Assembly: GCA_000091205.1 (NCBI GenBank)
Contig: AP006487.2
Direction: 5' to 3' (one strand)
DNA from: Cyanidioschyzon merolae
Taxonomy: Eukaryota
DNA length: 64,000 bases
Part shown: in pieces, positions 29,445 through 61,461 of the stretch
Position numbering within the stretch: position 1 is the first letter of the stretch
Layout of the letters: each line of letters opens with the position of its first letter
The notes under the pieces: generated by a model
Databases searched by the model: none
Seen by the model: only the letters and a program-made list of their open reading frames with translations
Told to the model about the DNA's origin: nothing
Made by a program: the position numbers and the translations under genes

Positions 29445-32400
29445 CGCCACAGGCAGTACAACCGAGCATTTTGCCAGCAGCACCGCGCATGAGACGCAAA
29501 TCTACAGTTGTTGTGGCTGCATTCCTGTGCAATGACGACGGTTCCTCAGTGTATCGATCTGGACCTGGAATGTACTACGAAATGCTGCAAGCATCGAAGC
29601 GATGCTGTGTCGATATGCACCGGTTCCCCGCTGTATTCATATGCTCGATTCGTGCGGGACACGTGGAGGCTTCGACTCTCTGCGCCACCCTGAACAGAGA
29701 GCGTGCCCGCTACCTATCGCTTGTTACTTGCTACCGGTCTGGTTGGAGCGCTTTCATTGATCTCCTGGGGAACGCAGGAAAAAAGACCAGTTCGAGTCTG
29801 GCAATTGGAAAAGCGTGCCCCAAGTTTGACGCCCGTCTGAAGCATGCCATCACATCCTACGTCGCTGCTAAGGTCGTTTTCCGAATAATTAATTTCAGTT
29901 GGGGCTGCGTCGCCAAGCCGCGGACCCCGGATTTTTACTACTGTATCCATAGCGAACAGCGTAGTGCACTCCACTATAGGAAAACGACGAGTTGAGAGTC
30001 TCCTTTGGCACCTTGCTGACTATGATTTGGATTGCGAACTCCATGTGGAGTCGGTGCTGATCCGTTTTGCGCCAAGGAACAGCAAGTGTTCCATCCTTTT
30101 CCATAAGTGCTGTGGTGCAACGAACCACTTCAGCGAGCTCGAGTTGTAGAATCTCTTCGACAGTCCCTGTATACAGAGCAACTGCCTCTACTGCGCCAGC
30201 AAATGCGCTGATTGCGACTACGCAAGCGGTTCCCTGCTGACCGCAACACTGTGCAAGCGATGCTCAAGATACCGAGCGGTGCTCGGTACGTCCAAGATTC
30301 ACAGCTCCCAAGCTGTCGATTTCGCTTCAGAAAGCTGATCAAGTGGATGCTCCGTACAGCTGCGATTCGTAATGCAAACAAAGCACCAGGATACGCCTCG
30401 AGCGACATTGACCACAGACAGCTTGTAAATATGTCGCGATCGAGTCTATACATCGACTTTAGGGCAATTTGGGTTGAACGTGGGCATATTGCGCCACCCT
30501 CTTGCGCATCTGAGAGCACACCAGCACCCCAAGCATTCGACGCATAGAGGAATAGATCGCAGGCGTCGGGATCAAGCCGTGCCGCTTCCGCATGTCCGGA
30601 ATTTTTGCCGGCGATTGGCCAGATGCACGCTGCTACTACTGGAGCCAGCGCCTGCAGTATCTTGAGTAATCGTCAATTCCTGAGATGTTTTTGGTTGCAA
30701 TCAGAGCAGCGAATGTCCGATTACCCGTACCAGCACGCTCTTTTGGTTATTGTTTGGTTTTCTTGCAGGTATTCGATAAAAAGAATGCATCGTGTCGATC
30801 CGATTACAGTCGCTGGATGAATTGGTATTGTCTGTGGTAGCTCGCGAAAAGAACGGCCCCACCTGTGCCTGTCCTTCTATAATGAACTGGGGCATGAACC
30901 GCTTTTCTCATCGCTCTGATCCGACACGTCAGTCTCCCGCAGTAGAACCCTCCAGAACCTCTCTTCGACTGTTTCCTTGCCGATTGATTGTGTAGCGTAC
31001 TTGGATGAAGAAATACTACCAAAGTCACCGCTGGATTTTGACGCCTCCGTACCGCTAATGACAACGGTGATGAAGAGACCCAGAAATACGAATCGAAAAG
31101 CACGCCTGTATGCTAGATAGTCACGCGTCGAAGAGCGCAAGACTGATCTCGTCGTGAAACGCGAGCGCTTATCACAGGACGAACGAGAGTTCATCTCGTG
31201 CAACGAAATGTCCTTCGGGGGAAATGGTACACCTGCACTTGGCTACGCAAACCGGAGCAAACCACTGTTCTGAAAGACGAGCGAAACGGGACGGACGACA
31301 ACACCAGCCCTAGCAGCGATTTAATCCCTTGATCACCGAATCGTCGCCGAACGGACAAGATCGTTCAACAACTCGTGCTTGGTCGACGTATTCTGTGGCT
31401 TCTTTTTTCCCATTTTGTTCCGTCCGGCTCGTAGGTATCATCGGATTGCGTCAATCAGGAGCGGTCAAGGACACCGCAGCTGGCATCGCAGTTGAGCTGG
31501 TCTCTGTGCTGGCTTGTTTTCTCTGGCTCAATCGAAACGAATTCGTTTTTCCAAGACATCCCAGAGCATTTCTATGTTCATCGATGATTAAACGAATCTT
31601 TCGCGTTCGCGACACCAAAATATGCTGCGTACTTTTACGGATCGCAACCCCCCTTCACCGCGCTCGTCTTGCCTGGCTTTTCTGTTTCCTGCCTCGACGC
31701 GTCTCCTCAACCGATTGTTCATACAAGTTTCGGAAGCGAGATCGCCAGTTGTCTACACTCCACTCGATTTTTCGATCAAACCTTCGCGCGACAACACGAC
31801 ACAAATGTTCAGAGCAGATGATGCGATTCGACGTGAGCGAGGCATCAGCGTTTTGCGCATATGCGTACCAGCATATCTTGCCGCGTCGCCGCGCCATCTC
31901 GACGATCGAAGTATGTGAGGTGCCGGTCCTAAAACGTACCAGGCAAACCTCAGAAAGCAACATCATGTCCGGGTTCAGTTCGGGCGCTTTATGAGGCGCG
32001 CATTGTCGACGTTTTCCAGTCATGGTACTGGCCCAGAAAAGTGGGCACTGTTTGAAGGTATGCTACCGTTCAGAGAGAACACGAGCGATCAAGCGGCGCA
32101 CGCGGACGATCGTTACGGGGCGTTCATACGAGCGCGCGGAGGTCACCAACAGTTTCGGTTGTACAGAAGCAAGAAGCGTACATGCACTCACTTCGACTAA
32201 GAGTTGTAAACGAAAATCTCCGATATGTCGTGTGGTTGGGTGCCAGGCAATGGCGCTGGAAGCACTGGAGCGCGCGATGACTGCACCCTTGCGGACTTGT
32301 GGACGGCGTCCAACGAGTGCGGGAATCGATTCCATACGACTCCCGTAGATGCATTCAGGACGATGCCCTCGCATCAATAGCATGGGTGCTCAATGAAACA

Positions 32401-33692
32401 GGCAGAGAAAAAGCACCTGAAACAGAGCCGGATACACGAGACGGTGTACGTCAGGCCGAGCGAACATCAGCTGGCGAGAATATTGACGACCAGAGGATTG
32501 CAAAAGCGAGATTTCAGGAGCAAAATACCTCGATGTACATCCGGGAATGTCCGGTGTTCGCACAGCGCCCAACAGCTTGGTGATCAACGAACCTTTGAGG
32601 GAATCGCGCAGTACTTCGTGTAAACACGGATCTGAAACGCTGAAGACTTGCGATGGAAAACAACAGTGACCATGACAGCGTGTATTTCATCCATGTTTGA
32701 AGCAAGACACTTGTATGAGACGGTTCAGCAGTCCAGAATGGCTGCCATGCCCCATATATACACATGGAACGGTTTTCCTAGAAATTCATGAACGAATATC
32801 CTGCTCCGTAATTCGACTTGACGATGTACCGACATGCAAAGCGGCGTCCTAGGTGCTCTAGCCTAGACGCCCGCCCCCGAAGACCTGCACGGTGTCGCCC
32901 TGCGAGCCTTATTTACCGCACCATACATCCCTGGGATATTTATGATGGCTCCGGCCTTGAAGATCACGCGTTTGTGTGTACGTCAGCAGCGTCGATGCGT
33001 CGCTCTAAAATCCATCTACACAGGTGTTCACGGAATGCTCGGCATTTAAAAGCGAGCCCGCTCAACTTCGTATACAATGTGTCATGCATGTAGACTTGCA
33101 TTTTCGAACGAGATCCGTCATTGGGGCACCAGCTCGAGACTGATCAAGCATCAAGCTTCGTGCACGGTAGACAGGCTGTGCTATGAACGGTTCGGCATTC
33201 GACGCCAGGCGCTGAACCCAGACTTGCGTCACCGTACAGTGCGTTTAGGGTTCCATCAGCAGTGCCTCGTTCTTTGCGTTCGTCCTGCAATTCTCCAGGT
33301 CATAGAAGCGTATCCGCAGCATGAAACTGTTCAGTGTGAGCCGAAGTAGCAACATCCAGCATAGGCATTGAAGCGCGTGTCCTATAGATTCCAAGTGCCT
33401 GTGAGCGCTCCCGCACCGGCGATGCACCTTCGTACGAGGACGCGCTCCATACCAAGTCAGCCGAAACATTTCCTATGAATCAAGTGAGGCAGAACTCGCG
33501 ATTTGTGCACTAATCCAGAAGCACGCTTTCGGGAAAGCTTAGCAACAGAATTCGGGCGATTATGTTTTGGTCTATGGTCGAGTCTTGGCTGGGAATCCCA
33601 GCTACGCAATGGATACCGACGTCAGGGAAAGCGCTAACGCATACTCGGCACTCTACGGATTATATGAACGAGCCGTTGCCTCCAACAGGGAA

Positions 33693-41799: not shown

Positions 41800-42485
41800 G
41801 TCTGAGCGCGTCTTGTCGCAACGAACTCCAGAGACTGGCATGTTTCGCGTCTCGCATGATACGCTGGCCTCGTTTTAATGTTGCACCTCATTTGTGTTCC
41901 GCTTGCAGGTGCGTGTCATCAAGTGCTTCCTCGCGGGTTATAGCGGACGTGTTCAAAGAGCGTCCATTTTCAAAAATAAACTATCCTAGGGAGATGTGTA
42001 TGTATGAAAATCGGGGATCCTGATGTGCTAGTGTCGCCGGTTTCAACAGAAAAAACGAAAAATTCTCTTCTCACCGACCATCGAGCGAAGGAGAGCAAGT
42101 TTTATGAAAAAGTAGAAAAAGAGAGGAACGGCGGGTGAAAAGTTTTTGTATGCCTGATGTGACGATTACGAGACTGTAACGGGACAGAGGGCACACTGAC
42201 GAAGGCGCCTTGCATTGATGAGTCCCATCAGAGGCAGCAAACGCATGGAATTCGTGAACAGAGACTTGAACTCCGCCATCAAAATCAGACCATTTGTGTT
42301 ACAAAAGGCGAGGCGCGCGGAACTTACGTTAGCGAAAGGTTTGGGACAGCCTCTCAGGTTCGAAGTGTACACGGGACAAATTGAAACCGATATCTGGTTG
42401 CTGGTCAGAAAAAGGCTTCGAGGCGCCTGTGAGTGCGTATCATTTTCCCCTGTCGAGCCGACGCTCTCTGTGGTGCGGCATAGCC
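41800..42485 (+). pseudogene. TnpB/Fanzor-like relic B (~680-bp element; subfamily with relic D)
   Basis: Encodes SKRMEFVNRDLNSAIKIRPFVL; shares ~680 bp of nucleotide homology with 54380-55055 (e.g. gtgtcatcaa[a/g]tgc, atcgagcgaag[ga]aga[gc]caag, acagagggcac, gcattgatg) both upstream and downstream of the RuvC-III-coding segment. Confidence 0.45.
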
Positions 42486-43099
42486 GTTCTGTCTCCGTGC
42501 AAGGACCGCATCGGCCCTGTAGACGCTATCGCCGACGCTCTGGGCATGCACTCGGCGCACGATAGAACGTACGGAACGACCATTATATCCGAGAGAAAGT
42601 ATGGGTTACGGAACGTGGAAGTAAGGCGTGGAATGAGGGATACCTTACAGCGCGCTGATGACGAGCGCAGAATCCGAGAACGCTCGCCACAGCAACCACT
42701 TTGGCATTTTTTCACTGACAAAACGTTTACTTAGGCCAGCGTTCTCCGATTATGCGCTTTTTTCTTTTCTTTCTTTTTTTTCAGTGCGAGGTGAGGTATC
42801 CATCAACCCCCTACCTCCATGTTACATTACCTATACTTCGTCTCGGATATTCTGGTCGTTTCATACGTCCTATCGTGTGTGCCTAGTACCTGCCGTTCCG
42901 TATTCGCGTCTGCGCTTGAACCGCTGGAGCAGATAGCTCATAGGGCTAAAACAGCTTTTCTATACCACAGAGGGCGTCGGCTCGAGGTGTGCTTCATCCG
43001 ACGTAGAATCGGGTCTCGTCGTCAGTTTGTGCTCGTACAGTCTGCGGATGCAGGCTTGCCTTCGCTGCACGACACGCTGGAGAAACTTGGTTGTTAGGA

Positions 43100-46000
43100 T
43101 GAATTCTGGGAGCTGCCTCTCTCCTTCGTGATCATGCATGGAATGCATTGTTGTCGGTTGGCTATGCGGATTTGTGCTTGACACCCACTACAGAAGGAAG
43201 GCGTAGAGAGCACTAAACCCGTGTGCGCATCCGATCCGCTGGACCTTCCGCCTAGAAGGTAGCACGTGAGTTTGTTGGCCACTAATGAGCACTGAGGATC
43301 TGTTAGCGAACCATCAGTTGCCAGTGCTGCACTCAGAGTGAGTGTCCGGCCTTCGACTATCACGGTGTTGCCGAGCTGCTGCTGTCCTTCGAGGAGCTCG
43401 CTGCGCTCCTGCTTCTAGCGCGGCCACTGTAGGCCTAAATATGTCAGCGTCTCGGGGATTTCGTCTCGATAGCAGGTACAGTGTGACTCCCAGTGCGATT
43501 CCAGGGTTCCTATCCGGCTTAGAGCCGGTGCTGGTAGCCAGGAGCCACCAACGCTGATTTTGGCGAGCCACTGGGTACCTCGAGCAAGTCCCGGGAATTC
43601 CAGCGCCTCCCACCAGTAATTGCATGTGTATGCTAGGTTGTAGTTCCGGTATAGAGTCAAGCCGGCGTTACTCGCGCGACTGGTACTGTATCTACGTTCC
43701 CATATTGTTGTTCGGACCGTTCGCTTGAGGCGACGGGAGAATTCTATATTCCTGGGGAATGATTGGGTAGCGTGTTTTCGCCTAAGAGGCGCTTCAGCCA
43801 AATCTGCGCTGATTTCATCCAAGTGATCTTGCGGTGCGTTGGGGTCTGCATGGATATCCGACTGAACCAGGTGTTCATGGTTGGCCCTTTGCCCCATATG
43901 CGTGCCCGGCAGCCTGCTGCTATCGCCTCTGTCGAGGGTATTTGGAGTTCAAGTCCGAGTGCCAGCAGGTTGGTTGCTCTGCTCTGCATTGAGCATCCAA
44001 CTACAACGAGTCGCATTGCCCTGTTGGCGGCTGTCTGCAGACGCGAGGCATTTGTGTGCTTCATGCCGCACCATTCAGCACCACAGGTCGCAGGCTGGAT
44101 GATACATATCCTTAGTGCGCTGGTACGGATTGCTAAGGGGATAGAGGGGTCGGATAAGAATGGGCATGCGATCGCTGTACGTCTATGCATCTTGGCGATC
44201 ATCTCGTTAACGTGTGCCTTTTCGTCGAGCGTCGGCGTGAGACAGACCCTAGGTAGCGATATTTTTCCACGATTGGAATTTCCTGATTCTGCAACCGCCA
44301 CGAGCGATTGCGAATGCTCTGCGAGTCTCCATGGATGGCCATGACGCCGCACTTCGATGCTCCTATGCTCATCTCCCAGCGATCGGCCCAGGCGCTGACT
44401 TGTTCCATGCTAGCCGCAAGCGTTTCCGGGGCGGGTGCCAACAGCACGACATCGTCCGCAAATAGAAGGCCTGCGAGGCGGTTCCCATATGGGCGCTCCC
44501 CATCGGGCATCTCCACAGTCTATCCACGGCACCTCAAGCCCGTATTGTCTGTAGTTGTTAAGCAGATCGTTGATGAAGATGTTGAAAAGGAGCGGGGATG
44601 CAGGATCGCCCTGTCGCAGTCCACGGCGGATTCTTATCGAAGGGGTTCTTGAGCCGTCGCCTAGTCGGATGCGCATCCACGAGTCTGCATAGAGCGCACG
44701 GAAGAACGCTAAGCACTTTGCGGAGACTCCGGCTCGTTCCATCTTCATAAATGGAGCCTCATGCGGGAACGTGTCAAAGGCCTTTTGGAAGTCGACGAAG
44801 CATACGTAAGTTGGTTGTTGGTCGCTAATGAAGCGACGTTGCACCACTTCAATGAGGGTCAGGGCATGGTTCATGCACTCCTCGTGGCTCCGGAATCCAG
44901 CCTGTTCTGGGGCGAAGAACTTGCGTTCCTGGAGGCCGCTGTGGATACGGTTCGTGAGCATGGCGCGAAGTAGCTTCATGATTGACGGGATGAGGCGCAT
45001 AGTCCGGTAGATGTTCATGTCTGTGTGTGTGTGGGAGTCCTTTTTGAGGATCGGTACGACCTCGACAGCCCTCCGTACATCTGGGATGTACGCTTCTTCA
45101 AACATGCGTTGAATGAGCTCCAGAAGGCGTTTGCCTAAGATTGTGTCAGGTTCATCTGGTATCGATGGTGTCCCTGTTGTCCCGTCTTTTGGGGTCGCCA
45201 GTTTCATCCACTCCGCAGGGATACCGTCGATGCCAGGTGTTTTGCGATTGCTTGAGCATAGCAGAGTCCGAACAGATTCAGGCCAGAAAATTGGGTCGTT
45301 CCATTCCGGTACCGGGTCGAGGCGCGGTAGTTCTGCAGCATATCGGTGCCAATAGATTCGGTCTTAGCAGTGCCCAGTTGCGTCTTCATGTAATTCTGTG
45401 CCGTGGTCCGTCCAGGCCTCATTCACTGAGGCACGCTCCGTCCTCAGCGCTTCCTTTTAACAGTTGGTGTGAGCCCCAAGCACTTTCTTGGTGGGTCCAG
45501 TCTCGATCGGATGTAGCCTGGGGTTTCATCTTCGTTGGTGCTCTTCAGCATAGATTCCGCCAGGGAGGCCATTTTGCGGTTTCGATCCTCTCGTTTGTCT
45601 TCTCTGGAAAGTTTCTTCGTTCTTTTGATAGCTTCCTCATGTTGCGCCTGTAGCGCCGGTAGCGCTGCCTTCGCTTCCTTGTCTCCGGCGTTGGCGCGTA
45701 TGGCGGTGCGGTTGACAATCTTGTTGAGTCGGTGGCATTCATGAATCCGAGTTTTGGTACGTCGTTTGAGGTACTGCGGCTTGCTACTGTTGTGTTCAGG
45801 TGCAAGCAGTCCCAATTTTCTGGCAATCTTCTGATTCCCATCTACAAACTCGCGTGCCAATTGGTCTGAAGATTTGTATTCACGGCTTTTCGGATCTTCA
45901 GCGCTGTGAGCAGGTGCCTGGGATTGGCGACGGCTTTCTTGAGTTCCAGCTGGGGTGCCCTTTCGGGGGATACCTTGTGATGGGCTCGTTTGGGAGTTCT

Positions 46001-46350
46001 TCTTTCTATTCTTCTGTTTTTTCTTGCTGGTCTACTTCTTCTTCGGGCTCTTTCCTGAGCTGCTTTCTCTGGTTATTTTGCATTTAAGGGGATCATGAGG
46101 TTTCTGTGTCTCTTTCTCCGTACCTCGTTGGGTCTCTTTTCCAATTGTAGAGTCCTCGACTTGTATCAGTTCTTCATTACTGTACTGGTAATTCGATATC
46201 TCGTGGTTAAATACCGAGGCGATCCCGCTAATATTCCATGATGCGAAACCTATCGAGTCGTAGCGCATAAGGGAATAGGAGTAACGCTGCGGTACTCCAG
46301 AGATACGTTGTCGATTTAGACGCAGCTTCCACAGGGTGTGTGAGAGCACA
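43100..46350 (-). mobile_element. Degenerate non-LTR retrotransposon (LINE) with APE endonuclease fragment and reverse transcriptase
   Basis: Minus-strand ORF fragments in series. 46032-46349 carries an APE N-terminal motif (IGFASWNISGIAS). 45444-45860 is the RT N-terminal region. 44410-45207 carries RT domains 1-5 (FRSHEECMNHAL, DFQKAFDTFPH, RGLRQGDPASPLLFNIFINDL). 44199-44516 carries FADD (LLFADDVVLLA). 43415-44352 carries the thumb/C-terminal region. Frameshifts occur between fragments. Confidence 0.8.
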
Positions 46351-47348
46351 TGCCACCATTGCCTCCTGCATTCCAGTCGTTCACTGAGTGTCTGCCGCAG
46401 CGCTAGCGTAGAATCAGATGTACATTAGTCAAGGTCGATTCGAATGCGAACTTTGTCTTTCCGGACGCGTGAAGCTACCCTCAACCATTGGGAAAAGTCT
46501 GCAAACCACCATTTCAGCGGCTTTGTATCCGCTCCCCAAACACATAGGCGGGCAAGTCGCTTATTCCACTTTCGACAGTGAGCATACTGCCAGCTGTCTT
46601 CCAAAGTATCCGCCGAGATTGTTTCCAAAGTTGAGGTAGGTACTCAAGGTAGAAGGTGAAACTGAGCCCGAATTCAGGGATGGATCCAGTATTTGTGCCC
46701 GAACCTGCAGCGTTGTTTCGGGAGCAGCGGATGACTGCGCTCAGAATTATCGTCATCATTCTCTGCTACTGCCTACGCCCCTCCGTTCGTTGCGGTCAAG
46801 GCCCCTGGCGTGGACTTCCTTCGCAGTCGCTCAAGCACCCCGCGTTAACCCACTTTCAGAGGTTCTCCGGAAAGACTAGACCCCTTAGGCGGACGTGGTT
46901 TGTGGGGCTTTTAAGATAGTGGTTCCTTGATAAATAGTTTGCGACTAGTTTGCATCGCGCTCGGTGAGCGCACCTCGGAGATCGGGCAGGCATGAGACGC
47001 TACGCGCATGCCACTGTTGAAGGGAAACACGTGACCTTGATCAATAGCGTGTTGTTCTGCTGTAAAAGTCGGATTCCCGTTGAGGGCGTAGCAAAGTATA
47101 GTTTTCAGTTCATTTCTGTTTCAACCCTCAAGTAAAAATACTCGAGTGTTTTTTCGCAGTATATAAGAGAAGCGTTCAAAGAGCATTCTTTTTAAAAAAA
47201 CTAAAAAAAGGAAAAGTATGTAGGAGCAAGTCCACGATCCTGGAGGCCCACTGTCGCAGGCTGCCAGAAAGAAAACAAAAAACAGTGCCGAGTCCAGAAG
47301 AACAGGGAGAGAGAAGAAGAACCGAAGAGGGGAGGCCCTACGTCGAAG

Positions 47349-48990
47349 GTGGCAAGAAAGACGACTGTACAACGAGATGGTGGTGAAAGCCTTTCTTCTT
47401 GGACATATCAAGGATCCCTACAGGGAAAAGTTGCGAGACGCTATCGAAAAACGTGTCGACTCGTATTCCGAGAGTATTATCAAGGCGTCGTCAGGGCTGA
47501 TGCATTTGGCGAGGGAGATGTATCGCGACATGGCGCACATGGAAACAGTCGAGATTCCGGACGAGTTTCTCGACATGACCTTTATTTGTCAGCTAATGCT
47601 TGGTACAGCGGAAACGCGGAAGGAAAATGTGCTAGTGCACGCCCTCCACGAAGAACATACCTTTTACAGCTTCAATGGTACTCGATACAAGGTGACGGAG
47701 ATATTTACATCTATGGGGCGATGAAGTACCTCACGAATCTGAAGAACCATTTGACAATGAACCTCGAACGTTTCACGGTACGCGCCGTGTGTGCACTCTA
47801 CCCGGGCCTATCTCGCAAAGGAAAATGGGCGATTATCAATGGCATCACGAAAGATCGTAAGCATGAAGATGAGACGGATTTCGTTGACAAGAAGGCGTCA
47901 AACGAGAGCACGAATGAAGCTTCTGTAATCCGTGCTGCTATTCAAGAGCACCGTGCAATCCTGGGACTGGATTATCCAGCAGAAAAGATATCAGAGTTGA
48001 AAAAAGATAAGGAAACATACGATCGCCTCATTCTACGGTATTTCGTGTTTCTGGACCAAGAACTCGAACGCGAGGCGGAGATGAAGGTGAATAGGGGAAA
48101 AATGAAGAGTGGGAGAGACGGAAGGCTGTCCTAACGGGGAAGCGCTTCAACGTGGTTCCATTGTGCAACATCAAGTCAGATTTTGTGACCATCGGCTCCG
48201 GCGTCCTTTACGGCATCATGAAGCAGATCAGTCCGGAGTTCAGTGTCAGCAGGGAGGACTTCACCGGCGAAAACCGGGAGACGTACTGCAAGAGTATCTT
48301 CGATTTCAAACGTCTGAGAGTGAGCAAGCAAAAGTTGTTTACTGGGATGATCGTAACCGATGGAGTAGAATTGTGTGCAAACTATCGGCGGTTGAAGAGA
48401 GATCGGCCAGTCCCTCCCTCGGCTGCGCCCGTGACGAAGGATCAAGAAAACAAAGAGGTGTATCCTGCGACGCAGGAGGTGGAGGATAGAGACCTTGTCG
48501 TTGACGTGACCAAGGATGAAGAAAGGGAGGAGGCGGATCTTGCGACGCAGGAGGTGCAGGATTACGACCTTGTCGTAGGCGTGGACCCTGGGAATACGAA
48601 TGTCCTAACCATCGCAGCACCGAAGCGTGCGGAAGATGGAAAAGTGCCAGCGGAATCCTGAAGATATACAAAAGTACGGACCGCTGACGGAAGGGCGAAT
48701 GGAAAGGAGAGCGAAAGTTCGAGGATTGCTTGCATCAGTAAGTACAACCAGTGATGGCAAGAAACGGATGGAGTTTGTGAAGCGAGGTTTTAATGCCGCA
48801 ATCAATCTACGGAGATGTGCGGTGCTAGAGAATAAACCTCCAGACTGGACAAGAAGGAACCTTGTTGGACAATCTCTCAAAGGTGAACTATATGAGAGAA
48901 AGCTGGAAGCAGTAGTGGGTAGCCAGTCCAAAAAGACGGGGGGGGGGCGTCTGCACGTCAGCTGGAGACGATTTGTCTAAGGCGCGTTCG
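47349..48990 (+). pseudogene. TnpB/Fanzor-like OMEGA nuclease gene, most complete copy (C); frameshifted and internally deleted
   Basis: Collinear ORF fragments in frames 1, 0, 2, 0 (47377-47724, 47349-48134, 48152-48661, 48627-48980) join with single-nt shifts. Fragment 3 ends with a RuvC-I-like motif [17 protein letters not shown]; fragment 4 carries RuvC-III KRMEFVKRGFNAAINLRRCAV. RuvC-II and the zinc finger are absent (only ~70 aa between RuvC-I and RuvC-III). The 3' tail is homologous to relic A to ~48965. Confidence 0.5.
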
Positions 48991-49117
48991 CCGCCATTGC
49001 TGCGTACTGCCGGCGTCGTTCGACTTCGAACGGCGTTCGTGACCGAAGCTCATCCGCGGATCCAGCTGCACGCCGCTGCTTCATTCAGGACGCGTTGTAT
49101 AACAACGTCAGGGAACC

Positions 49118-49438
49118 ATGACGAAAGGAACATCTTCCAAGGGTCGCCGTCACGGCAAATCACATACACTCTGTATCCGTTGTGGACGACGATCGTACCA
49201 TATCCAGAAAAGTACCTGTGCGAGCTGCGGGTACCCGTCGCCGCGAAAGCGGACTTACAACTGGAGTTTGAAGAGCAAGCGGCGACGCACTACAGGAACT
49301 GGGCGCATGCGGTACTTGAAGACGGTTGCTAGACGGTTTCGAAACGGGTTCCGCGAAGAGAACACTCGTAAGGCGATAAAGAGGACAGTGGCTGCCGCTC
49401 CCGCACAGGAGAGCGGCCAGGAAGCAGCGAGCTCTTGA
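49118..49438 (+). CDS. RPL37: 60S ribosomal protein L37e
   Basis: [81 protein letters not shown] is a near-full-length match to eukaryotic L37e including the C4 zinc ribbon. Confidence 0.95.
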
Positions 49439-53116: not shown

Positions 53117-54289
53117 TCAGCTTGTCGATCGAACGATTCGCCCTACGACAACAGTCACATCATCCGCTTTGCCGCCATAATACCAGAAGCCAGCACTACG
53201 AGCGTTCACTGCAAATGGCGACATTCGGTTTTCGTCTGCTGCGAGCGTCACCGCCATCTGTGCCAAGCGCGTTGCCAGGTCTTGCAGCACAGGCGCGCCG
53301 TCCACAATCATCGCTGGTGCGGGTGCACAAGTGTTTGGCTCAGTGGCGATGTGCATTTCCCGACGTGCGTGGCCATCCGGCTCGCTTTTCAGCGTGGATT
53401 TGATCACAGCATTCGCTCGGGATCGCTCCGCCGGCGGCACGTCTGTTGCCGCCGCTTTCTTCTCAGTACGCTCCCGGTACCAGTCCTGAATGCAATCAAC
53501 AATTTCTTTATCGTACACATTGTCGAAAAGGCCGTCTGTGCCCAGAACGAACCAGTCGCCCGCCTGCACTTCGAAACGGTCCACGAACGCATCGTACGCG
53601 GTATCTTTGCTCTGAGATCCGAGCTGATACGGGCAGTTGAAGTAGTGCTGTTGTTCTTTCGAACGAAAGATAACATCGCCCTTGCGCATGACCAGGAGCC
53701 CAGAATCCCCCAAGTTCACACACGTGAGCGTACCACGTCGCGACACGACCTCCGCGCTCTCCAACGGAGTACTGAGCGCCACGAGGCACGCAGTGCAACT
53801 ACCGACCACATCATTGGACGCGGCCGCTTGATCCAGGACACTAACCAGGCTACCAGAAGCGTCCATACTTTCTGTGCCTGCACGCACGAGCTCGGCAAGC
53901 CGCCTTGAATAGAGGCCCGGATCGACGCCTAGCGCCGACCAGCCACCGACACCGTCGAAAACACCGGCTGCTCGTTTTGTGAGGAAGAACGCGTCCTCGC
54001 CACCACGTTGGCGCTTGTTCGGATGCGGGATCATTGCGACACCCGCTTGGAAGTGAAGTCGTCGGCTGCAAACTATCCACCAGGCAGCGTGGCTAGGCAC
54101 CCGCGGGGCATACCAGGCGGCTCGACGGCGCTCGGCAACGTTCCGTAGACCAGCTTCCGTTCGATTGGAAGCGAGCGAGCTCCACGGTCGAAAACTGCAC
54201 GAAGCAGCACTCGCTCCCTGAGCGAACACCCAGCCGGTCAAGCGATAGTTAGCTGCCGCCTCTGCTGCCCAGAAAAACGCCCTCGTCAT
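53117..54289 (-). CDS. PTC7: PP2C-family protein phosphatase, PTC7 subtype (likely mitochondrial)
   Basis: GEDAFFLTKRAAGVFDGVGGWSALGVDPGLYS, CLVAL, LTCVNLGDSGLLVMRKGDVIFRSKEQQHYFNCPYQLG, LGTDGLFDNV, MSPFAVNARSAGFWYYGGKADDVTVVVGRIV align along PPTC7. Likely start MTRAFFW at 54289, just downstream (in gene orientation) of the (GAAC)n tract; the ORF track extends to 54712. Confidence 0.85.
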   Translation of the reverse strand: MTRAFFWAAEAAANYRLTGWVFAQGASAASCSFRPWSSLASNRTEAGLRNVAERRRAAWYAPRVPSHAAWWIVCSRRLHFQAGVAMIPHPNKRQRGGEDAFFLTKRAAGVFDGVGGWSALGVDPGLYSRRLAELVRAGTESMDASGSLVSVLDQAAASNDVVGSCTACLVALSTPLESAEVVSRRGTLTCVNLGDSGLLVMRKGDVIFRSKEQQHYFNCPYQLGSQSKDTAYDAFVDRFEVQAGDWFVLGTDGLFDNVYDKEIVDCIQDWYRERTEKKAAATDVPPAERSRANAVIKSTLKSEPDGHARREMHIATEPNTCAPAPAMIVDGAPVLQDLATRLAQMAVTLAADENRMSPFAVNARSAGFWYYGGKADDVTVVVGRIVRSTS

Positions 54290-54305: not shown

Positions 54306-54350
54306 CGAACGAACGAACGAACGAACGAACGAACGAACGAACGAACGAAC
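54306..54350. repeat. (GAAC)n microsatellite, ~11 units
   Basis: gaacgaacgaacgaac... read directly; lies in the 5' leader of the PTC7-like gene (encodes FVRS repeats if the upstream frame is used). Confidence 0.95.
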
Positions 54351-54379
54351 AGGTAGTGCAAAGAACACACCGTACCGGT

Positions 54380-55055
54380 AAGTCGCGCGTGCCGTGGAGG
54401 CGAACGCTGTCGTTCATTCGGCAGCGCTCGAGGCTGGCACCGACTTGCCCGACTAGATGCACTACTTTTTGCTCTTTGACCACAGTGAGATTGATTAGTC
54501 AGGTGTGTGTCATCAAATGCCTTATTCGGTTTATAGCAGATGGGCTGCAAAGTGCGTTCATTTAGAGAAATAGAGAATATAAGATATAGGTATGGAGATT
54601 GAAGTCGAGGATCCTGGATTGCCTCTGTCCACGGGTGTCGGAAAAGAACGGGAATTTTCTCATCTTTTCGACGATCGAGCGAAGAAGACCAAGAAGAGGG
54701 GAGATGGACCACAAAAATGTGTTTGCCCGACGGGGCGATGACGAGAATCTAATCGCACAGAGGGCACGAGTTCTGGCAATCCCTGCATTGATGCGTTGCA
54801 CCAGATGAACTGCATAGAACGGCTCGTGAACGGAGACTTCGACGTCACAAGCAATATCAGGAGATGTGCGGTGCTGAAAACGAGACTCGCGGAGCTGACG
54901 CGAACTAAATTCGAGTGGCAGCCTCTAATACCCCCAGTGTGCCTGGATAAAAACCGCAACCGATGGCAGTCGGCGGATAGAAAAAGACTGGGCGGTGTCT
55001 GCGCGTGGGCAGCTATATGTACTCTCGATGGTGGTAAAACATTGCACGTTTTATA
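54380..55055 (+). pseudogene. TnpB/Fanzor-like relic D (~680-bp element; subfamily with relic B)
   Basis: Encodes AQRARVLAI... and ERLVNGDFDVTSNIRRCAVL in adjacent frames (RuvC-III region with a frameshift); extensive nucleotide homology to 41800-42485 on both sides. Sits ~90 bp upstream of the PTC7 start, on the opposite strand. Confidence 0.45.
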
Positions 55056-56596: not shown

Positions 56597-57661
56597 ATGG
56601 CGTTTCTTTCAAGTTGTCCGGGTGGATCGTGCCTGACACGAGATCATCATAAGCATCGGTTGGCGATCCGTTCTCGTCTGCAACGGTCTCTGTGTTGCAC
56701 GACGGCTCGCACCGAGCAGCAGGTCCAGGCCCAAGAGGTGGAGCGCCCCAAGCACTTTTTCGGACGCGTTATTACCGCTCTGGTGACGCCATTCAAATTG
56801 ACTGGCGTTGAGGTGGACTATGGTGTTGCTGAATCTTTAGCTGCTCACCTTGCTGAGAACGGTTCGGATGCGATAATTGTTGCAGGCACCACGGGAGAGT
56901 CGGCAACGCTGACCTGGTCGGAAGAGTACGAACTCTTTCGGGTGGTCAAGTCGGCCGTTGCAGGGACAAAGTGTCGGGTGATAGCGGGTGCTGGCTCGAA
57001 CTCGACGGAAGAGGCGATTGAGGCGACCAAAAAGTCGGCAAAGTTGGGTCTCGATGGAACCCTACAAGTTGTCCCGTACTACAACAAACCCCCACAACAG
57101 GGTATTATGGCACATTTTCGGGCGATAGCCAACGCAGCACCTGATCTGCCTATGATGCTCTATAACATCCCCGGACGCACGGGCATCAATATGACAGCGG
57201 AAACGTCGATCAAGCTGGCGGAGATGTGTCCGAATATCGTGGCGCTGAAGGAAGCATCAGGCAACCTGGAGCAGTTTGCTCGAATTCGGCGAGCAACGTC
57301 ACCCGACTTCGCCCTGTACTCTGGAGACGATGCGCTGACGCTTCCGCTTCTATCGCTCGGAGGCAATGGTGTGGTGAGCGTTGCCTCTCATTTCATCGGT
57401 CCCGAGATCCAGCGGATGATTGAGCACTTCGTGGACCTGGGGAATCCAGAAGAGGCGTTTCGAATTCACTGCCGATATATGGACCTGTTCGAGGCACTCT
57501 TCGTGATGGCGAATCCAATACCGGCAAAAGCAGCGCTGCGTTTGCTTGGCTGGCCGGTGGGCCCCACGAGACTTCCGCTCACGGATATCACAGCATCCGC
57601 AGAGCAGCAGTTGCGGCAGGCCATGATTGCGGCAGGCCTGCTTTCCAATGGAAGCGGATAG
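56597..57661 (+). CDS. dapA: 4-hydroxy-tetrahydrodipicolinate synthase (DapA, lysine biosynthesis via diaminopimelate)
   Basis: VTPF, AGTTGESATLTWSEEYELFRVV, IAGAGSNSTEEAIEATKKSAKLGLDGTLQVVPYYNKP, YNIPGRTGINMTAE, ALKEASGNL with the catalytic lysine context; ~55-aa N-terminal extension relative to bacterial DapA. Confidence 0.9.
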   Translation: MAFLSSCPGGSCLTRDHHKHRLAIRSRLQRSLCCTTARTEQQVQAQEVERPKHFFGRVITALVTPFKLTGVEVDYGVAESLAAHLAENGSDAIIVAGTTGESATLTWSEEYELFRVVKSAVAGTKCRVIAGAGSNSTEEAIEATKKSAKLGLDGTLQVVPYYNKPPQQGIMAHFRAIANAAPDLPMMLYNIPGRTGINMTAETSIKLAEMCPNIVALKEASGNLEQFARIRRATSPDFALYSGDDALTLPLLSLGGNGVVSVASHFIGPEIQRMIEHFVDLGNPEEAFRIHCRYMDLFEALFVMANPIPAKAALRLLGWPVGPTRLPLTDITASAEQQLRQAMIAAGLLSNGSG

Positions 57662-60099
57662 TGCTTCCTGGCAAGGCTAGCGCAGGTCTCGTGCCTGTGG
57701 CTGCGTTATCCACATGGGGGCCAGTGCCTTTCGCCCGCGTCTCGCTCTATGTGCGGCGACTTTGGGATCGCGCTCGCCTTTCACGCCAGTGTGTGTGTAT
57801 CTATGTGTGGGTTGCCCTGTCTTTCATGCAGGGCTTGCGTACCATGCGGGCGTTTGTTGCCCTGCCCTTCGTAGTTCGCATCAAGTTGGAAAGACGCGAG
57901 TTTCAAAAAGCTCCGGACTGGATCAAAGCACATGGCCAGGAGTTCCCGAACGAGCACGTAAAGTTTGAAGCTGCGCGTTGTTGTCTCTCGGAGGTCGAGA
58001 CGGACAGAAACGGATTTGTTTGGAAAGCCGACCAGGGCGCATTGGTCACGCAGGGCGCCTCGAGCGGAGTCCTGTTGCACACGAGAACGCTGTCGAAGCC
58101 GAAAGGAGCATTTTCGAGCCAGAGCGCCATCGGGGCTGTTGCGCGTAAAACGGATCTTGCGACTTTATGCAGCCGCTGCTTGCATTAAAAATAAGCCTAC
58201 TATGATCGTCTGCATGTCCTCGGTCGTGCGAAGATGCACGGCAGCTAGCTGGGTCTCAGCGGCGACAGTTTACGCTGGCCTGGTGGCATCGGCCTGTAAC
58301 CGCAGGGCACCCGAAGGGATGGGCATTTCGGCCGCGCTCCGGGGACATGGTGATAAGTCCCCGCATTCATGCGTGCCGAGCTTCCCTGAACGTCGGTAAT
58401 GATCGCGCACGTGAGCATTCCGGAGGACAGACTCAACAATCCAGCACCGTGAAAAATGGACGCGTATCGCCGGGACTCGAGCCCCGTGGACACCACGGCC
58501 AGCTGCGGTTGCCGTGGCAGAGCGCGAGCGGTGAGCGCCGGCTCCTTTTTGACGAATGCTTGACCCTGAGCCTGTCGATTTGCGTTCGAGAACCGCGAAC
58601 ACTCGCCGATGCTCTGGTTACGGATGCATCATCACAGCGCCACACGGCGCTGAACCGAAGGCACTGCAACACTGGGGGAGTGCATTGGCGTGCGGACGAT
58701 TCGCTGGGGGTTTCGCAAGACGTTCGGATTTGCTCGTCATGAAGCAGGTTGGGATCTGGGTCTCTCATATGCAATCGCCACTGGGCATCGAATGGATTTG
58801 TTGACCTCGAATGGGGTTCGGATCCCGCTGGCTGGGTAGCTCGGCTACGCGCGCACTGGGCGCGCTTGTGCTGCTCCGGAGCACGGACTACCGAAGCAAC
58901 ACAGCTGGACGCAGGGCTTGGATCCCGTCAGGCCAGAGAGGGCCGGCTTACTCAAGCGCGTTTTGAACACGTTGCAGGCGGTGAGCTCGAGGCACAATGT
59001 CTTCACATGCTGATCCTGAAGAAACTAAATTCACGCGCGGGGATTTTGTGTGCTGCAGACGAGGCTGGACACCGCAGCGACGACCTCCACCAATGGGAGA
59101 TTAAAATGGAGCACTGGGCTGCTCGCTATGTACGTGGATAGGTTCTTCTCGACTTGTCTTTTCAGATGTAGAGCTGTGACTTTTCGAGAGCAGCAACAAG
59201 GGCTTGAGCACTCGTGTGTCGGTTTAGGATTCTCGGCCATAGTTTCAGAGTGGTTTTTTCGACGCTCTTCCACTAGGACTCGTTACATCACCGAAATCAA
59301 GACCATTCCCGATGTTCCGGAACTAGGGTTCGTAAACGAACCAATATTCGTCTCCAATGTGTACGTAAAGGTTTCCAATCTTCTCAATATCTTACTTTTG
59401 TAGCGTGCTCAAGCCACGTATGCTTGTAGTTTTGTCTCTTTCTTTCTCAAGGCAACTCATTGATATCGCAATGCTCGCCATTGCTTCGACGAGGGAAAAT
59501 GCTGGACGTCGTCCCTCGGAGACTTGTTCACGAGTTCATACCGACAATACGCGCAACATGCCACTTCGAATCATGCATTGCTTTCAAGCGGTACACTCAA
59601 TGCTCTCTGCGGCGGTCAACGAAACAGGATTCGCTATCTGCCTCGTACGTCTCACAGGACATACTTCCGGAGGCTGCAGTCTGTCTCTATTTTGCCTGGA
59701 ACGTTGTCTAGATTTCGGAATTGAGTCATCCGGGTGTCCGTGTCGAGTGCTACGTACGTCACTGTTTTGCACGAAGGAAGCGTCAAGGGATCGAATACCT
59801 TCGACTTGTTATCCAATCTGGATTTACCCCCCGATGTTTGTTTCATCACGAACAACATCGTGTTCCACCAATACGTTATCGAACGGAACAGGGCGCGGTT
59901 GGACTTGCAGCCATCAGCGCCGTCGCCGAGTACATCGCTCAGATCAAGCACGTGATCGCAGAGCACGGCGCCGGGTGCGGAAACTGCAATGGATATCAAG
60001 GGGAATCTTCTCTTCTCCGAAATGGCAAGTAGCCTGCGATGAAGCACGGGATCGCGCGCTGTAGGACGGCGCTCGGAGGACGAGGAGATATGGTCGATG

Positions 60100-60365
60100 C
60101 ATAGGCACACTTGGCAGCGGTCAAATGTCACCGCTGTGAAGCGCGGACCCCAGCTGTACACAAAAACAGATGAAAACAGCAAGCGAAGCGCGGATCGCGA
60201 TTTTCACCTGTGCATGGTTTGCGTGACCAGCAGCCGGACGCAACGGAATCGGAACTCGAATGCCGCCATCAACAACCCGCGAATGCTGAGAACGGAACCG
60301 AAGACTCACGAGAGACCAGCATATGTAGATCAGCAGATAATCGAGAAGGAAAGAAAGTAGTCTCA
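60100..60365 (+). pseudogene. TnpB/Fanzor-like relic E (zinc-finger CxxC + RuvC-III remnant)
   Basis: Encodes HLCMVCVTSSRTQRNRNSNAAINNPRMLRT (CxxC followed by N-x-NAAIN); nucleotide similarity to relic A (cgaa..c.c..atcaa / aaaacgg.acccga.g). Confidence 0.35.
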
Positions 60366-60723: not shown

Positions 60724-61461
60724 ATGAATTCGAGTTTTATAGTTTCCCCTGTGTACAAGAGTTGTAATTTGCGGTGTCGGGCTCTTTTGCTACGAAATCA
60801 CTGCGCTTTTGGGTCGAACGTGAGCGGGAGCGTGAACCGCCAGTGCACCCAGTTCTGGCGTGCACCGCAGCGACGTGTCTTGCGATGCGGCCTGACAGCT
60901 ACGGATTCTGGTCGGTCAACGCTTCCATCGCCCAAAGTTCGAGAAGAATCTAGCCGGAGGTTCTCAGATCAGGAGATCGCGTCTGAAACCCCGCTGGTCA
61001 CCTTGCTCTACGACGGTGAATGCCCGATCTGCATGAAGGAAGTACGCTTCCTACAGTCGCGGGACGCGGGCCGTGGCCGTATTGCATTCGTTGACATTAC
61101 GTCGCCAGACTACGACCCCGCGAAATATGCCGGTATCACGTTTGAGCAGGCAATGGGCCGCATTCACGGTATTCTCCCCGACGGCACGGTTGTGAAGAAG
61201 GTGGACGTCTTCCGAGCGTGCTACGAAGCAGTTGGCCTCGGCTGGCTTTGGGCAGTGACTAGCGTTCCCCTGGTGAAGAAGTTGGCGAATGCCGTGTATG
61301 ACTTTTGGGCGGATCGGCGTCTGCAGTGGACCGGGCGCGGCACGCTCGAAAGCGTACTTGCAGCACGCCGCGGTGCAGCACCGGCCGCCGATGGGGACGA
61401 CTGTTCCGAACGCTGCGTGATCGACTGGGGTGAAGATGAAGAGCCGGAGGAAAAGAAATAG
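60724..61461 (+). CDS. DCC-family thiol-disulfide oxidoreductase (DUF393)
   Basis: LLYDGECPICMKEVRFLQSRDAGRGRIAFVDITSPDYD matches the DUF393 CxxC motif and fold signature. First ATG at 60724 (ORF-track start is TTG); N-terminal ~60-aa extension precedes the domain. Confidence 0.7.
   Translation: MNSSFIVSPVYKSCNLRCRALLLRNHCAFGSNVSGSVNRQCTQFWRAPQRRVLRCGLTATDSGRSTLPSPKVREESSRRFSDQEIASETPLVTLLYDGECPICMKEVRFLQSRDAGRGRIAFVDITSPDYDPAKYAGITFEQAMGRIHGILPDGTVVKKVDVFRACYEAVGLGWLWAVTSVPLVKKLANAVYDFWADRRLQWTGRGTLESVLAARRGAAPAADGDDCSERCVIDWGEDEEPEEKK

What the first reader, a model, noticed from the sequence alone, without database searches (positions are those of the whole stretch)
54380..55055. Fanzor-like relics sit immediately upstream of gene 5' ends (PTC7, RPL37, DEAH helicase, DCC)
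Four of the five relics end within ~100-360 bp of a start codon. D is ~90 bp upstream of the PTC7 ATG on the opposite strand and overlaps the ORF-track extension of that gene. C ends ~130 bp before the RPL37 ATG. A ends ~350 bp before the DEAH helicase ATG. E ends ~360 bp before the DCC ATG. This suggests promoter-proximal insertion preference, or exaptation of the relics as promoter sequence. It may also simply reflect survival bias in a compact genome.
Basis: inference. Interest (0 to 1): 0.55.

Follow-up and report, generated by a model that had tools for sequence, protein, structure and literature searches.

The report
Fanzor transposon relics abutting gene starts

Summary
The window is Cyanidioschyzon merolae 10D, on a 528,682-bp chromosome-sized contig. 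The region 54380-55055 is a dead, internally deleted copy of the Fanzor1 element family CMe-1A, which Bao & Jurka described in 2013. It keeps the 5' leader, about 45 N-terminal codons, about 90 C-terminal codons with the RuvC-III motif, and a tail.

The window holds six such relics, all on the + strand, not five. Element C ends only 72 bp before the RPL37 ATG.

- Of 41 junctions with a host ORF within 500 bp, 35 face a co-oriented start codon and 6 face a stop codon (p = 5e-6).
- The median gap to the ATG is 76 bp, and several gaps are 5-20 bp from verifiable true starts.
- Partial copies always keep the 3' end.

Simple harmless-site survival predicts avoidance of these positions, so it is disfavoured. 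Insertion preference and retention cannot be separated, and no selective constraint on the relics was detected. The family is known. The orientation-biased, ATG-abutting distribution was not found in the literature searched.

The parts
54380..55055 (+). Relic D, the finding: an internally deleted, degenerate Fanzor1 CMe-1A copy. It consists of the 5' leader, the first ~45 codons (ATG at 54592), the last ~90 codons (RuvC-III remnant VNGDFDVTSNIRR at 54826-54864) and a 3' tail. There is an in-frame stop.
   Evidence: blastn and tblastx to relics A, B and C. nhmmer 5' block at 54499-54732 and 3' block at 54822-55006. Translation.
53117..54289 (-). PP2C/PTC7-like phosphatase gene (BAM79384). Its ATG at 54289 lies 91-178 bp from the 5' end of relic D.
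   Evidence: Exact match to the NCBI protein. Pfam PP2C.
54309..54350 (.). (CGAA)n microsatellite between the PP2C ATG and relic D. Its length varies among strains.
   Evidence: Sequence. 8.5-12% differences across 54290-54466 in four strains.
56597..57661 (+). DHDPS gene (BAM79385). Relic D's 3' side faces its ATG from about 1.55 kb away.
46935..49046 (+). Relic C: the longest copy. It has the 5' leader, a frameshifted ORF running through RuvC-I (GVDPGNTN), a deletion of about aa 503-675, RuvC-III, a stop at 48978-48980, a 3' hairpin (CGTCGTTCGACTTCGAACGGCG) and a precise 3' end at about 49046.
   Evidence: tblastn. nhmmer hmm 60-558 at 46935-47436 and hmm 2-293 at 48751-49044. Junction sequence.
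49118..49438 (+). RPL37 gene (BAM79382). Its ATG lies 72 bp downstream of the 3' end of element C and points the same way.
   Evidence: Exact match to the NCBI protein.
24557..24937 (+). Relic A: a C-terminal (RuvC-III, MEFVNRDENAAINIRR) fragment of an older subfamily.
   Evidence: tblastn E = 5e-21. nhmmer 24706-24920.
25277..27349 (+). DEAH/PRP43-like helicase gene (BAM79376). Its ATG lies 340 bp downstream of relic A and points the same way.
   Evidence: Exact match. Pfam.
41873..42435 (+). Relic B: the same 5'-leader plus 3'-end deletion architecture as D. No gene start lies within 1.5 kb.
   Evidence: B and D are collinear in two blocks. nhmmer 41881-42063 and 42233-42429.
31738..32640 (+). 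An additional divergent, internally deleted Fanzor relic in a convergent intergenic region, not near any start codon.
   Evidence: tblastn with P0079: aa 100-219, 461-618 and 638-676.
60097..60360 (+). Relic E: a very degenerate RuvC-III remnant (…RNRNSNAAINNPRML…).
   Evidence: Weak tblastn hit, E = 0.002, at 60109-60273. ORF translation.
60724..61461 (+). DCC-family thiol-disulfide oxidoreductase gene (BAM79386). Its ATG lies 364 bp downstream of relic E and points the same way.
   Evidence: Exact match.
42706..46934 (-). Non-LTR (LINE-like) retrotransposon relic with reverse-transcriptase ORF fragments at 44199-45207. It lies head-to-head with element C.
   Evidence: RT motifs in ORF translations. 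90% identity to L029 over 2.7 kb. A-rich 3' end.

Best explanation
The relics are dead copies of the Fanzor1-carrying element family CMe-1A. The element has a precisely defined 3' end: a subterminal hairpin, about 60 nt after the stop codon. Its 5' extent is variable.

In Cyanidioschyzon-type genomes these elements are distributed non-randomly. Their 3' end typically lies a few to about 150 bp upstream of a host start codon, in the same orientation as the gene. Their 5' side tends to face the start of a divergent gene.

In many cases too little room remains for a separate core promoter and 5' UTR. I therefore infer that these host genes are transcribed from within the element's 3' portion or by read-through of it. 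The most plausible source is the outward transcription that a TnpB/Fanzor element needs in order to make its guide RNA across the right end.

On this reading the distribution arises in two steps. Elements integrate into the open promoter or 5'-UTR region. Copies and 3' fragments are then retained when their outward transcription keeps the neighbouring gene expressed.

Relic D is a dead, internally deleted member lying in the divergent PP2C-DHDPS promoter region. Nothing shows that D itself has acquired a function.

What is shown: family identity, coordinates, the orientation and distance bias, and preferential retention of the 3' end. What is inferred: promoter or read-through activity, and the two-step origin.
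For: - Fanzor1 identity. The family was already catalogued in this species (PMC3627910).
- Sharp 3' end. Most copies fold an 8-13 bp hairpin there, and two subfamilies use different stem sequences.
- 63 unique 3' junctions: 35 face an ATG and 6 face a stop within 500 bp, p = 4.9e-6. The older or truncated class gives 9 to 0.
- The median distance to the ATG is 76 bp. 58% are within 100 bp against 23% expected, p = 1.7e-4.
- The downstream ORFs are bona fide host genes with canonical N-termini: alpha-tubulin, RPS4, CysRS, a KTI12-like protein, a DEAD-box helicase, ProA, FtsZ and cytochrome c1.
- In the window, element C ends 72 bp before the annotated RPL37 ATG.
- All 17 partial copies keep aa 650-750 and none keeps aa 1-300.
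- Independent metagenome gene calls fuse the Fanzor C-terminus in frame to host proteins: P0098 (G3P dehydrogenase) and P0101 (EAP30).
Against: - No transcript data were available, so a start site inside the element is not shown.
- Nucleotide identity among 26 full-length copies is flat, and the last 100 nt are the least conserved (0.69).
- Relics are not more conserved than other intergenic DNA between strains. The power is low at 1-2% divergence.
- RNAalifold found no consensus structure over the last 250 nt, and there are no Rfam hits. A guide RNA is therefore unproven for this family.
- Almost all scored copies are degenerate, so integration bias and retention cannot be told apart.
- Gene starts outside the window come from my own ORF predictor, which takes the first ATG and may understate distances.
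- The sample is metagenomic and includes lineages other than 10D.
- Relic D itself does not show the 3'-end-to-ATG arrangement.
Confidence: 0.5

Rival explanations
1. Targeted, strand-specific integration with no benefit to the host. The element moves through a single-stranded DNA intermediate, in the IS200/IS605 or Helitron style: subterminal hairpins, no inverted repeats, no target duplication. It integrates into the displaced non-template strand of transcription bubbles or R-loops at gene 5' ends. That would fix both the location and the orientation. Copies then simply decay.
For: - Precise 3' end with a hairpin.
- Candidate 5' hairpin GCGCTC-GGT-GAGCGC at the start of the shared 5' core.
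- No TIRs or TSDs, as also reported by Bao & Jurka.
- Orientation bias of 35:6 and clustering right at the ATG.
- No sign of selection on the relics.
Against: - No HUH/Y1 or Rep-helicase gene was seen in or next to the elements. The ~1 kb 5' modules have only short ORFs.
- The 5' ends are variable rather than precise.
- It does not explain how genes with the element 5-20 bp from their ATG remain expressed unless the element also supplies transcription.
- No empty-site/filled-site pair could be recovered.
Confidence: 0.22
2. Survival bias only. Insertion is random, and in a genome this compact only copies landing in intergenic DNA persist. Any surviving relic is therefore inevitably close to some gene end.
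For: - Relics occupy every large intergenic gap in the window.
- Almost all copies are degenerate.
- Relics evolve at least as fast as other intergenic DNA.
- Codon position 3 is as conserved as positions 1 and 2, which indicates neutral decay.
Against: - Start- and stop-facing neighbours should be about equal, but the observed split is 35:6, p = 4.9e-6. TE-free divergent, tandem and convergent gaps have similar lengths.
- Harmless-site survival predicts depletion in the last ~100 bp before an ATG, but 58% of co-oriented ends lie there against 23% expected.
Confidence: 0.1
3. Adaptive exaptation. The relics, D included, are maintained by purifying selection as host promoters or regulatory modules.
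For: - 3' ends are preferentially retained next to start codons. The older or truncated class gives 9:0, and 17 of 17 partial copies keep the 3' end.
- All four related strains keep relics C, D and E at the same sites.
Against: - SNP density in relics is 1.2-2.8%, other intergenic DNA is 0.4-1.5%, and coding DNA is 0.0-0.5%.
- The strains are too close (98-99% identical) for presence of the relics to mean much.
- The 3' terminal 100 nt is the least conserved part among copies.
- D's promoter-proximal end is its 5' end, which shows only a weak trend (p = 0.09).
Confidence: 0.13
4. Artefact of the surrogate sample, arising from chimeric metagenome contigs, mis-predicted ORFs or repeated counting of the same site.
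For: - Some contigs share one flank but differ in the other: L086/L014 versus L018, and L044 versus L047.
- My ORF caller is a simple codon-usage model.
Against: - Statistics use single junctions only, which short reads span.
- Flanks were de-duplicated by shared 21-mers.
- All 24 inspected downstream proteins are different, recognisable host genes.
- The ORF caller reproduced the official annotation in the window without false positives.
- The four window cases use NCBI-annotated starts.
Confidence: 0.05

Closest known systems
Fanzor1 element CMe-1A / TE-N2_CMe of C. merolae (Bao & Jurka 2013, Mob DNA 4:12; PMC3627910)
   Same: Same species and same protein family. The paper reports ~150 copies about 80% identical to the consensus, about 3 kb long, with no TIRs and undetermined TSDs. 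Here, nearest paralogues are 75-96% identical (mostly 83-90%), the core is about 2.7 kb, and no TIRs were seen.
   Different: The passages retrieved from the paper describe the family and its shared 5' module but do not mention position or orientation relative to host genes. I could not compare with the Repbase consensus itself.
Characterised Fanzor1 nucleases (SpuFz 8GKH, PpFz 9CF0, GtFz 9CER; Saito et al. 2023)
   Same: Profile and fold match. GxDPG, DEFRTT and NRDxNAAxNI motifs are present in full-length homologues. The 3' end of the gene runs to a precisely defined element end, where the guide RNA of such systems is encoded.
   Different: The window copies are pseudogene fragments. No guide RNA has been demonstrated for this family. 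No partner transposase is present, whereas distant relatives in giant-virus-like contigs sit right behind a DDE_3 transposase gene.
Promoter-targeting elements of compact genomes and gene-rich regions (S. pombe Tf1; P element, Mutator and mPing; Ty1/Ty3 and Dictyostelium TRE at Pol III genes). Cited from general knowledge.
   Same: Accumulation within a few hundred bp upstream of genes, read as a safe-haven strategy in compact genomes.
   Different: Those cases rest on de novo insertion data and mostly lack a strong orientation bias. Here the element's 3' end abuts the start codon (median 76 bp, down to 5 bp) and is co-oriented, and only old copies are available.
Bacterial insertion sequences with outward-reading promoters (for example IS10 pOUT and IS6110) and the internal guide-RNA promoter of IS200/IS605 TnpB elements. 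Cited from general knowledge.
   Same: Transcription leaving the element's end can express the adjacent gene. The TnpB guide RNA is transcribed across the right end into flanking DNA. Both would give an orientation-dependent effect on the downstream gene.
   Different: Outward transcription from this eukaryotic element is inferred, not measured.
Helitron contributions to promoters and 5' UTRs (bat Helibat elements). Cited from general knowledge.
   Same: Hairpin-terminated elements with no TIRs or TSDs, enriched just upstream of genes and donating promoter or 5'-UTR sequence.
   Different: No Rep-helicase and no 5'-TC…CTRR-3' termini were identified here. The cargo is a Fanzor gene.

Membership tests
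Fanzor1 (eukaryotic TnpB-like RNA-guided nuclease) | Sequence-profile similarity to experimentally characterised Fanzor1 proteins | tested here: met
   A profile of 55 family members against PDB gives PpFz 9cf0 at E = 3.7e-17, SpuFz 8gkh at E = 4.1e-11 and GtFz 9cer at E = 9e-4. Single-sequence phmmer and the local Pfam copy gave nothing.
Fanzor1 (eukaryotic TnpB-like RNA-guided nuclease) | Fanzor/TnpB fold (WED, REC, split RuvC, zinc-finger insertion) | tested here: met
   AF2 model of homologue P0079 has pLDDT 89.9. The top seven Foldseek hits are SpuFz, PpFz and GtFz, with E = 7e-18 to 1.5e-15 and TM 0.51-0.73. Cas12f comes next.
Fanzor1 (eukaryotic TnpB-like RNA-guided nuclease) | Intact ORF carrying all RuvC motifs, that is, a functional nuclease | tested here: not met
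   Relic D keeps only about 45 N-terminal and about 90 C-terminal codons, with a stop between them. Its RuvC-III motif has degraded to VNGDFDVTSNI. Relic C has frameshifts and lacks about aa 503-675. The motifs are intact in metagenome homologues.
Fanzor1 (eukaryotic TnpB-like RNA-guided nuclease) | Guide (omega) RNA encoded at the 3' end and running into the flank | tested here: inconclusive
   The 3' end is precise, and most copies have a subterminal hairpin (mean z = -1.06 against shuffles). RNAalifold predicts no consensus pairs over 250 nt. There is no Rfam match and no extra conservation at the 3' end.
CMe-1A / TE-N2_CMe (Repbase family of Bao & Jurka 2013) | About 3 kb Fanzor1 element of C. 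merolae with no TIRs, no recognisable TSDs and many diverged copies | tested here: met
   The species was identified. The core is about 2.7 kb from the start of the shared 5' core sequence to the 3' end. Copies are 75-96% identical to their nearest paralogue. No terminal inverted repeat was found. The Repbase consensus was not available for direct alignment.
Promoter-proximal (5'-end-targeting) transposable elements | Copies enriched immediately upstream of gene starts relative to random intergenic placement | tested here: met
   35 ATG-facing against 6 stop-facing 3' junctions within 500 bp, p = 4.9e-6. 58% lie within 100 bp against 23% expected, p = 1.7e-4.
Promoter-proximal (5'-end-targeting) transposable elements | The bias is present in de novo or very young insertions, that is, an integration preference | not testable with these tools
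   Only 2 scored junctions belong to copies with an ORF of at least 600 aa. No empty-site/filled-site pair was recovered.
Exapted TE-derived promoter | Host transcription start site lies inside the element | not testable with these tools
   No transcript data were available. It is inferred only from 5-45 bp gaps between the element end and true start codons. The literature states that no endogenous C. merolae promoter has a mapped TATA box or TSS (PMC12770821).
Exapted TE-derived promoter | Purifying selection on the element sequence | tested here: not met
   Relic SNP density is 1.2-2.8%, other intergenic DNA is 0.4-1.5% and CDS is 0.0-0.5% in four strains. The power is low because the strains are 98-99% identical.
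IS200/IS605-like or Helitron-like single-strand transposons | Subterminal hairpins, no TIRs or TSDs, and an HUH transposase | tested here: inconclusive
   The 3' hairpin is present and a candidate 5' hairpin was seen. No transposase-sized ORF lies in or next to the elements. The 5' ends are variable.

The most novel reading that the evidence does not exclude
The Fanzor element's right end carries an outward-reading promoter, the one that makes its guide RNA across the element boundary. Integration is strand-specific at transcriptionally open gene starts. As a result, dozens of C. merolae-type host genes, including housekeeping genes such as RPL37, RPS4, alpha-tubulin and tRNA synthetases, now depend on Fanzor-derived sequence for their promoter and 5' UTR. 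A corollary is that each copy's guide would match the 5' UTR or start-codon region of the empty allele. That would allow homing at promoters in the recently described diploid phase of these algae.
Probability: 0.2. Interest if true: 0.8.

Novelty: new variant of a known kind. Interest (0 to 1): 0.6.

Why it matters
Fanzor nucleases are intensively studied as genome editors, yet the natural life of the elements that carry them in eukaryotic genomes is largely unknown. That includes where they land, how they persist and what they do to host genes.

This sample shows a strong, orientation-specific association between the guide-RNA end of the element and host start codons. It gives a concrete hypothesis that is cheap to test, because C. 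merolae is genetically tractable by homologous recombination and has public RNA-seq data.

It would also supply the first candidate mapped promoter architecture for this model alga. A 2025 methods paper states that no endogenous promoter has a known TATA box or start site.

If the association turns out to be only an integration preference, it is still a new example of safe-haven targeting, this time by a Fanzor-carrying element.

Tried and rejected
- **Pfam, translated relics:** Pfam gave no hits on the translated relics or on the full-length homologues. Single-sequence and 8-sequence profile searches of PDB also gave no hits. Only a 55-sequence profile reached the Fanzor structures.
- **LINE partnership idea:** I asked whether the Fanzor elements share their 3' tail with the neighbouring LINE, like a SINE/LINE pair. 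That would have explained the 5' truncation. I rejected it. The match was between a truncated LINE fragment lying behind relic B and the full LINE, and the LINE ends in an A-rich tail unlike the Fanzor hairpin end.
- **Extra conservation of the 3' region:** My early impression that the 3' region is extra-conserved was wrong. Pairwise identity is flat at 0.78-0.85, and the last 100 nt are lowest at 0.69.
- **Hairpin covariation:** The two stem types are shifted relative to each other. This is not strict compensatory covariation, so I did not claim it. RNAalifold found no consensus structure.
- **Empty-site search through the RPS4 locus:** Related contigs were either filled or broke at the element edge. 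The Cyanidiococcus orthologue has no Fanzor upstream, but its intergenic DNA is not alignable. L091 diverges 117 bp upstream of the ATG into unique sequence of unknown meaning.
- **Classification of whole intergenic intervals:** The split was divergent 19, tandem 15 and convergent 5. I did not use it for the final statistics, because some contigs may be chimeric across the repeat.
- **tRNA and Rfam scans of the window:** Both gave nothing.
- **Transposase in the ~1 kb 5' modules:** I looked for one and found only short ORFs.

Full report
**What the window is.** Long ORFs match Cyanidioschyzon merolae 10D proteins residue for residue on a 528,682-bp contig. Examples are DHDPS BAM79385 and PAK kinase BAM79380.
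- PP2C/PTC7-like BAM79384: 53117-54289, minus strand.
- RPL37 BAM79382: ATG at 49118.
- DEAH/PRP43-like helicase BAM79376: ATG at 25277.
- DCC oxidoreductase BAM79386: ATG at 60724.

Consecutive accession numbers show that no annotated protein gene lies between PP2C and DHDPS. They also show that only one lies in the 8.8 kb between the PAK kinase and RPL37.

**What the relics are.** The region 54380-55055 shares 66-69% nucleotide identity with three other + strand stretches. Its translation carries a decayed RuvC-III motif. A stitched translation of the longest copy found over 100 metagenome proteins, including a 752-aa full-length one, P0001.

Single sequences hit nothing in Pfam or PDB. A 55-member profile hits the solved Fanzor1 structures PpFz, SpuFz and GtFz, at E = 4e-17, 4e-11 and 9e-4. 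A confident AF2 model (pLDDT 90) has those same structures as its best fold matches, at TM 0.51-0.73.

Bao & Jurka (2013) already listed one Fanzor1 family in C. merolae, CMe-1A. They reported ~150 copies at about 80% identity, a length of about 3 kb, no TIRs and undetermined TSDs. So "Fanzor-like relic" is correct, and the family is known.

**Anatomy in the window.** tblastn and end-profiles give six relics, all on the + strand:
- A: 24557-24937.
- A divergent extra relic: 31738-32640.
- B: about 41873-42435.
- C: 46935-49046.
- D: 54380/54467-55007/55055.
- E: 60097-60360, barely recognisable.

B and D share one architecture: the 5' leader and first ~45 codons are joined to the last ~90 codons and the tail. 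C is nearly complete but frameshifted, and it lacks about aa 503-675. C lies head-to-head with a LINE-like relic at 42706-46934.

All of them hold:
- A ends 340 bp before the helicase ATG.
- E ends 364 bp before the DCC ATG.
- D starts 91-178 bp from the PP2C ATG on the opposite strand and overlaps that gene's ORF extension.
- C's coding homology ends 138 bp before the RPL37 ATG. Forty aligned copies show that the element continues about 60 nt past its stop codon to a sharp end. The true gap is therefore 72 bp.

**Is it more than chance?** Six relics cannot answer this. One scan of metagenome contigs returned 80 loci with near-full-length copies, collapsing to about 45 sites. A codon-usage ORF caller trained on the window's confirmed genes reproduced the annotation without false positives, though it missed the short RPL37 gene.

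Some contigs share one flank but not the other, so they may be chimeric across the repeat. I therefore counted single junctions only, de-duplicated by flank k-mers. The results for 63 unique 3' junctions are:
- 41 have a host ORF within 500 bp with no repeat in between.
- 35 of those face a co-oriented start codon and 6 face a stop codon (binomial p = 4.9e-6).
- The older or truncated class gives 9:0.
- For the main family, whose end is precise, the median gap to the ATG is 76 bp.
- 58% of those gaps are 100 bp or less, against 23% for random points in TE-free DNA bordering a start codon (p = 1.7e-4).

The downstream ORFs are ordinary host genes with canonical N-termini. They include alpha-tubulin, RPS4, CysRS, AlaRS, FtsZ, cytochrome c1, ProA, a DEAD-box helicase and a KTI12-like protein. 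In several cases the conserved N-terminal motif leaves no doubt that the ATG 5-19 bp from the element end is the real start. On the 5' side the trend is weaker: 10 junctions face a start and 3 face a stop, p = 0.09.

**What this says about mechanism.** Random insertion followed by loss of harmful copies predicts two things: equal numbers of start- and stop-facing neighbours, and a deficit right in front of start codons. Both predictions fail.

With 5-70 bp left, a separate core promoter and 5' UTR hardly fit. The genes must be transcribed from within or through the element's 3' part. This is inference, because no transcript data were available. A 2025 paper states that no endogenous C. merolae promoter has a mapped TATA box or start site.

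A natural source would be the transcription that TnpB/Fanzor elements need across their right end to make a guide RNA. A guide RNA is not demonstrated for this family:
- Most copies fold a subterminal hairpin, and two subfamilies use different stems.
- RNAalifold finds no consensus structure over the last 250 nt.
- There is no Rfam hit.

Partial copies show a striking profile: all 17 keep aa 650-750 and none keeps aa 1-300. This fits either integration that proceeds from the 3' end or selective retention of the gene-proximal end.

**Against adaptive exaptation.**
- Identity among 26 full-length copies is flat.
- Codon position 3 is no freer than positions 1 and 2.
- The last 100 nt are the least conserved part.
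- In four strains 98-99% identical to 10D, relics carry at least as many differences as other intergenic DNA. The power of this test is low.

Only two scored junctions belong to copies with an ORF of at least 600 aa. Integration preference and retention therefore cannot be separated with these data.

**Relic D specifically.** D is a dead deletion derivative in the 2.3-kb divergent PP2C-DHDPS gap. Its 5' end, not its 3' end, neighbours a start codon. Its 3' end is about 1.55 kb from the DHDPS ATG. D illustrates promoter-region residence but not the stronger 3'-end rule, and nothing indicates that it has a function.

**Dead ends.**
- A SINE/LINE-style partnership with the adjacent LINE was rejected.
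- The search for an empty allele at the RPS4 site failed.
- No transposase was found in the elements' 5' modules. Distant relatives at 36-38% identity lie in giant-virus-like contigs, two of the three directly behind a DDE_3 transposase gene.

**Verdict.** The family is already known. Promoter-proximal TE accumulation is a known kind of phenomenon. The co-oriented, start-codon-abutting placement of a Fanzor element's guide-RNA end was not found in the literature searched, and it is directly testable in a tractable model organism.

Noticed in passing
window 31738-32640 (+): A sixth, more divergent Fanzor relic. It is internally deleted: aa ~100-219 are joined to aa ~461-676 of homologue P0079. 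It lies in a 6.6-kb convergent gap and is not near any gene start. All six relics in the window are on the + strand.
   Followed up: partly
window 42706-46934 (-), plus a truncated copy at 42453-42700 (+): A LINE-like retrotransposon relic with reverse-transcriptase ORF fragments (YVCFVDFQKAFD…, FADDVVLLA) and an A-rich 3' end. It lies head-to-head with Fanzor element C and tail-to-tail with a 5'-truncated copy of itself. The same LINE-5'-end/Fanzor-5'-end junction recurs in L010, L015 and L078.
   Followed up: partly
window 13889-15420: A tandem array of about 20 copies of a 77-bp unit, about 95% identical, in a low-GC stretch (0.50).
   Followed up: no
window 33700-34089: Three tandem copies of a 130-bp unit, 97-98% identical, in the same convergent gap as the extra relic.
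   Followed up: no
window 54309-54350: A (CGAA)n microsatellite between the PP2C start codon and relic D. This stretch differs by 8-12% between otherwise 99%-identical strains. Metagenome gene calls for PP2C vary between 390, 441 and 448 aa, probably because the repeat length shifts an upstream ATG in or out of frame.
   Followed up: partly
window 48430-48579; P0001 residues ~390-480: A 75-bp (25-aa, acidic) tandem repeat inside the Fanzor ORF just before the RuvC-I motif. There are two units in element C and four in the intact homologue P0001, so copy number varies between copies.
   Followed up: no
L017:370-470, L040:3294-3394, L043:4373-4463, L062:1234-1341, L068:4006-4113, L073:1042-1148: The last ~100 nt of the Fanzor element, hairpin end included, recurs 1.05-1.15 kb upstream of the Fanzor ORF in five or six different sites (L017 and L040 may be the same site). 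It is followed by a shared ~950-nt module (GGGCTCGATGTACGGGTTAGGCTC…). This could be a subfamily with short terminal direct repeats, or a fixed composite with another element.
   Followed up: partly
L044 versus L047; L086/L014 versus L018: These contig pairs share several kb, up to 8.2 kb at 95% identity, ending exactly at a Fanzor 3' end, but continue into different host genes: FtsZ versus an anion exchanger, and RPS4 versus cytochrome c1. Either recombination between copies or assembly chimeras across the repeat could explain this.
   Followed up: partly
L098:3395-5863, L099:3075-5869, L103: Homologues 36-38% identical to the Cyanidioschyzon-type protein lie in gene-dense contigs with giant-virus hallmark genes (RNA polymerase subunits, D5 primase). 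In two of the three cases they sit directly behind a DDE_3 (Tc1/IS630-like) transposase gene. The algal elements lack such a partner.
   Followed up: partly
window 19321-20152 and 22326-22531: Further stretches repeated in at least 4 unrelated metagenome loci. They are not Fanzor-coding. The first ends about 370 bp upstream of the Dim1 (BAM79375) start codon. Their identity was not determined.
   Followed up: no
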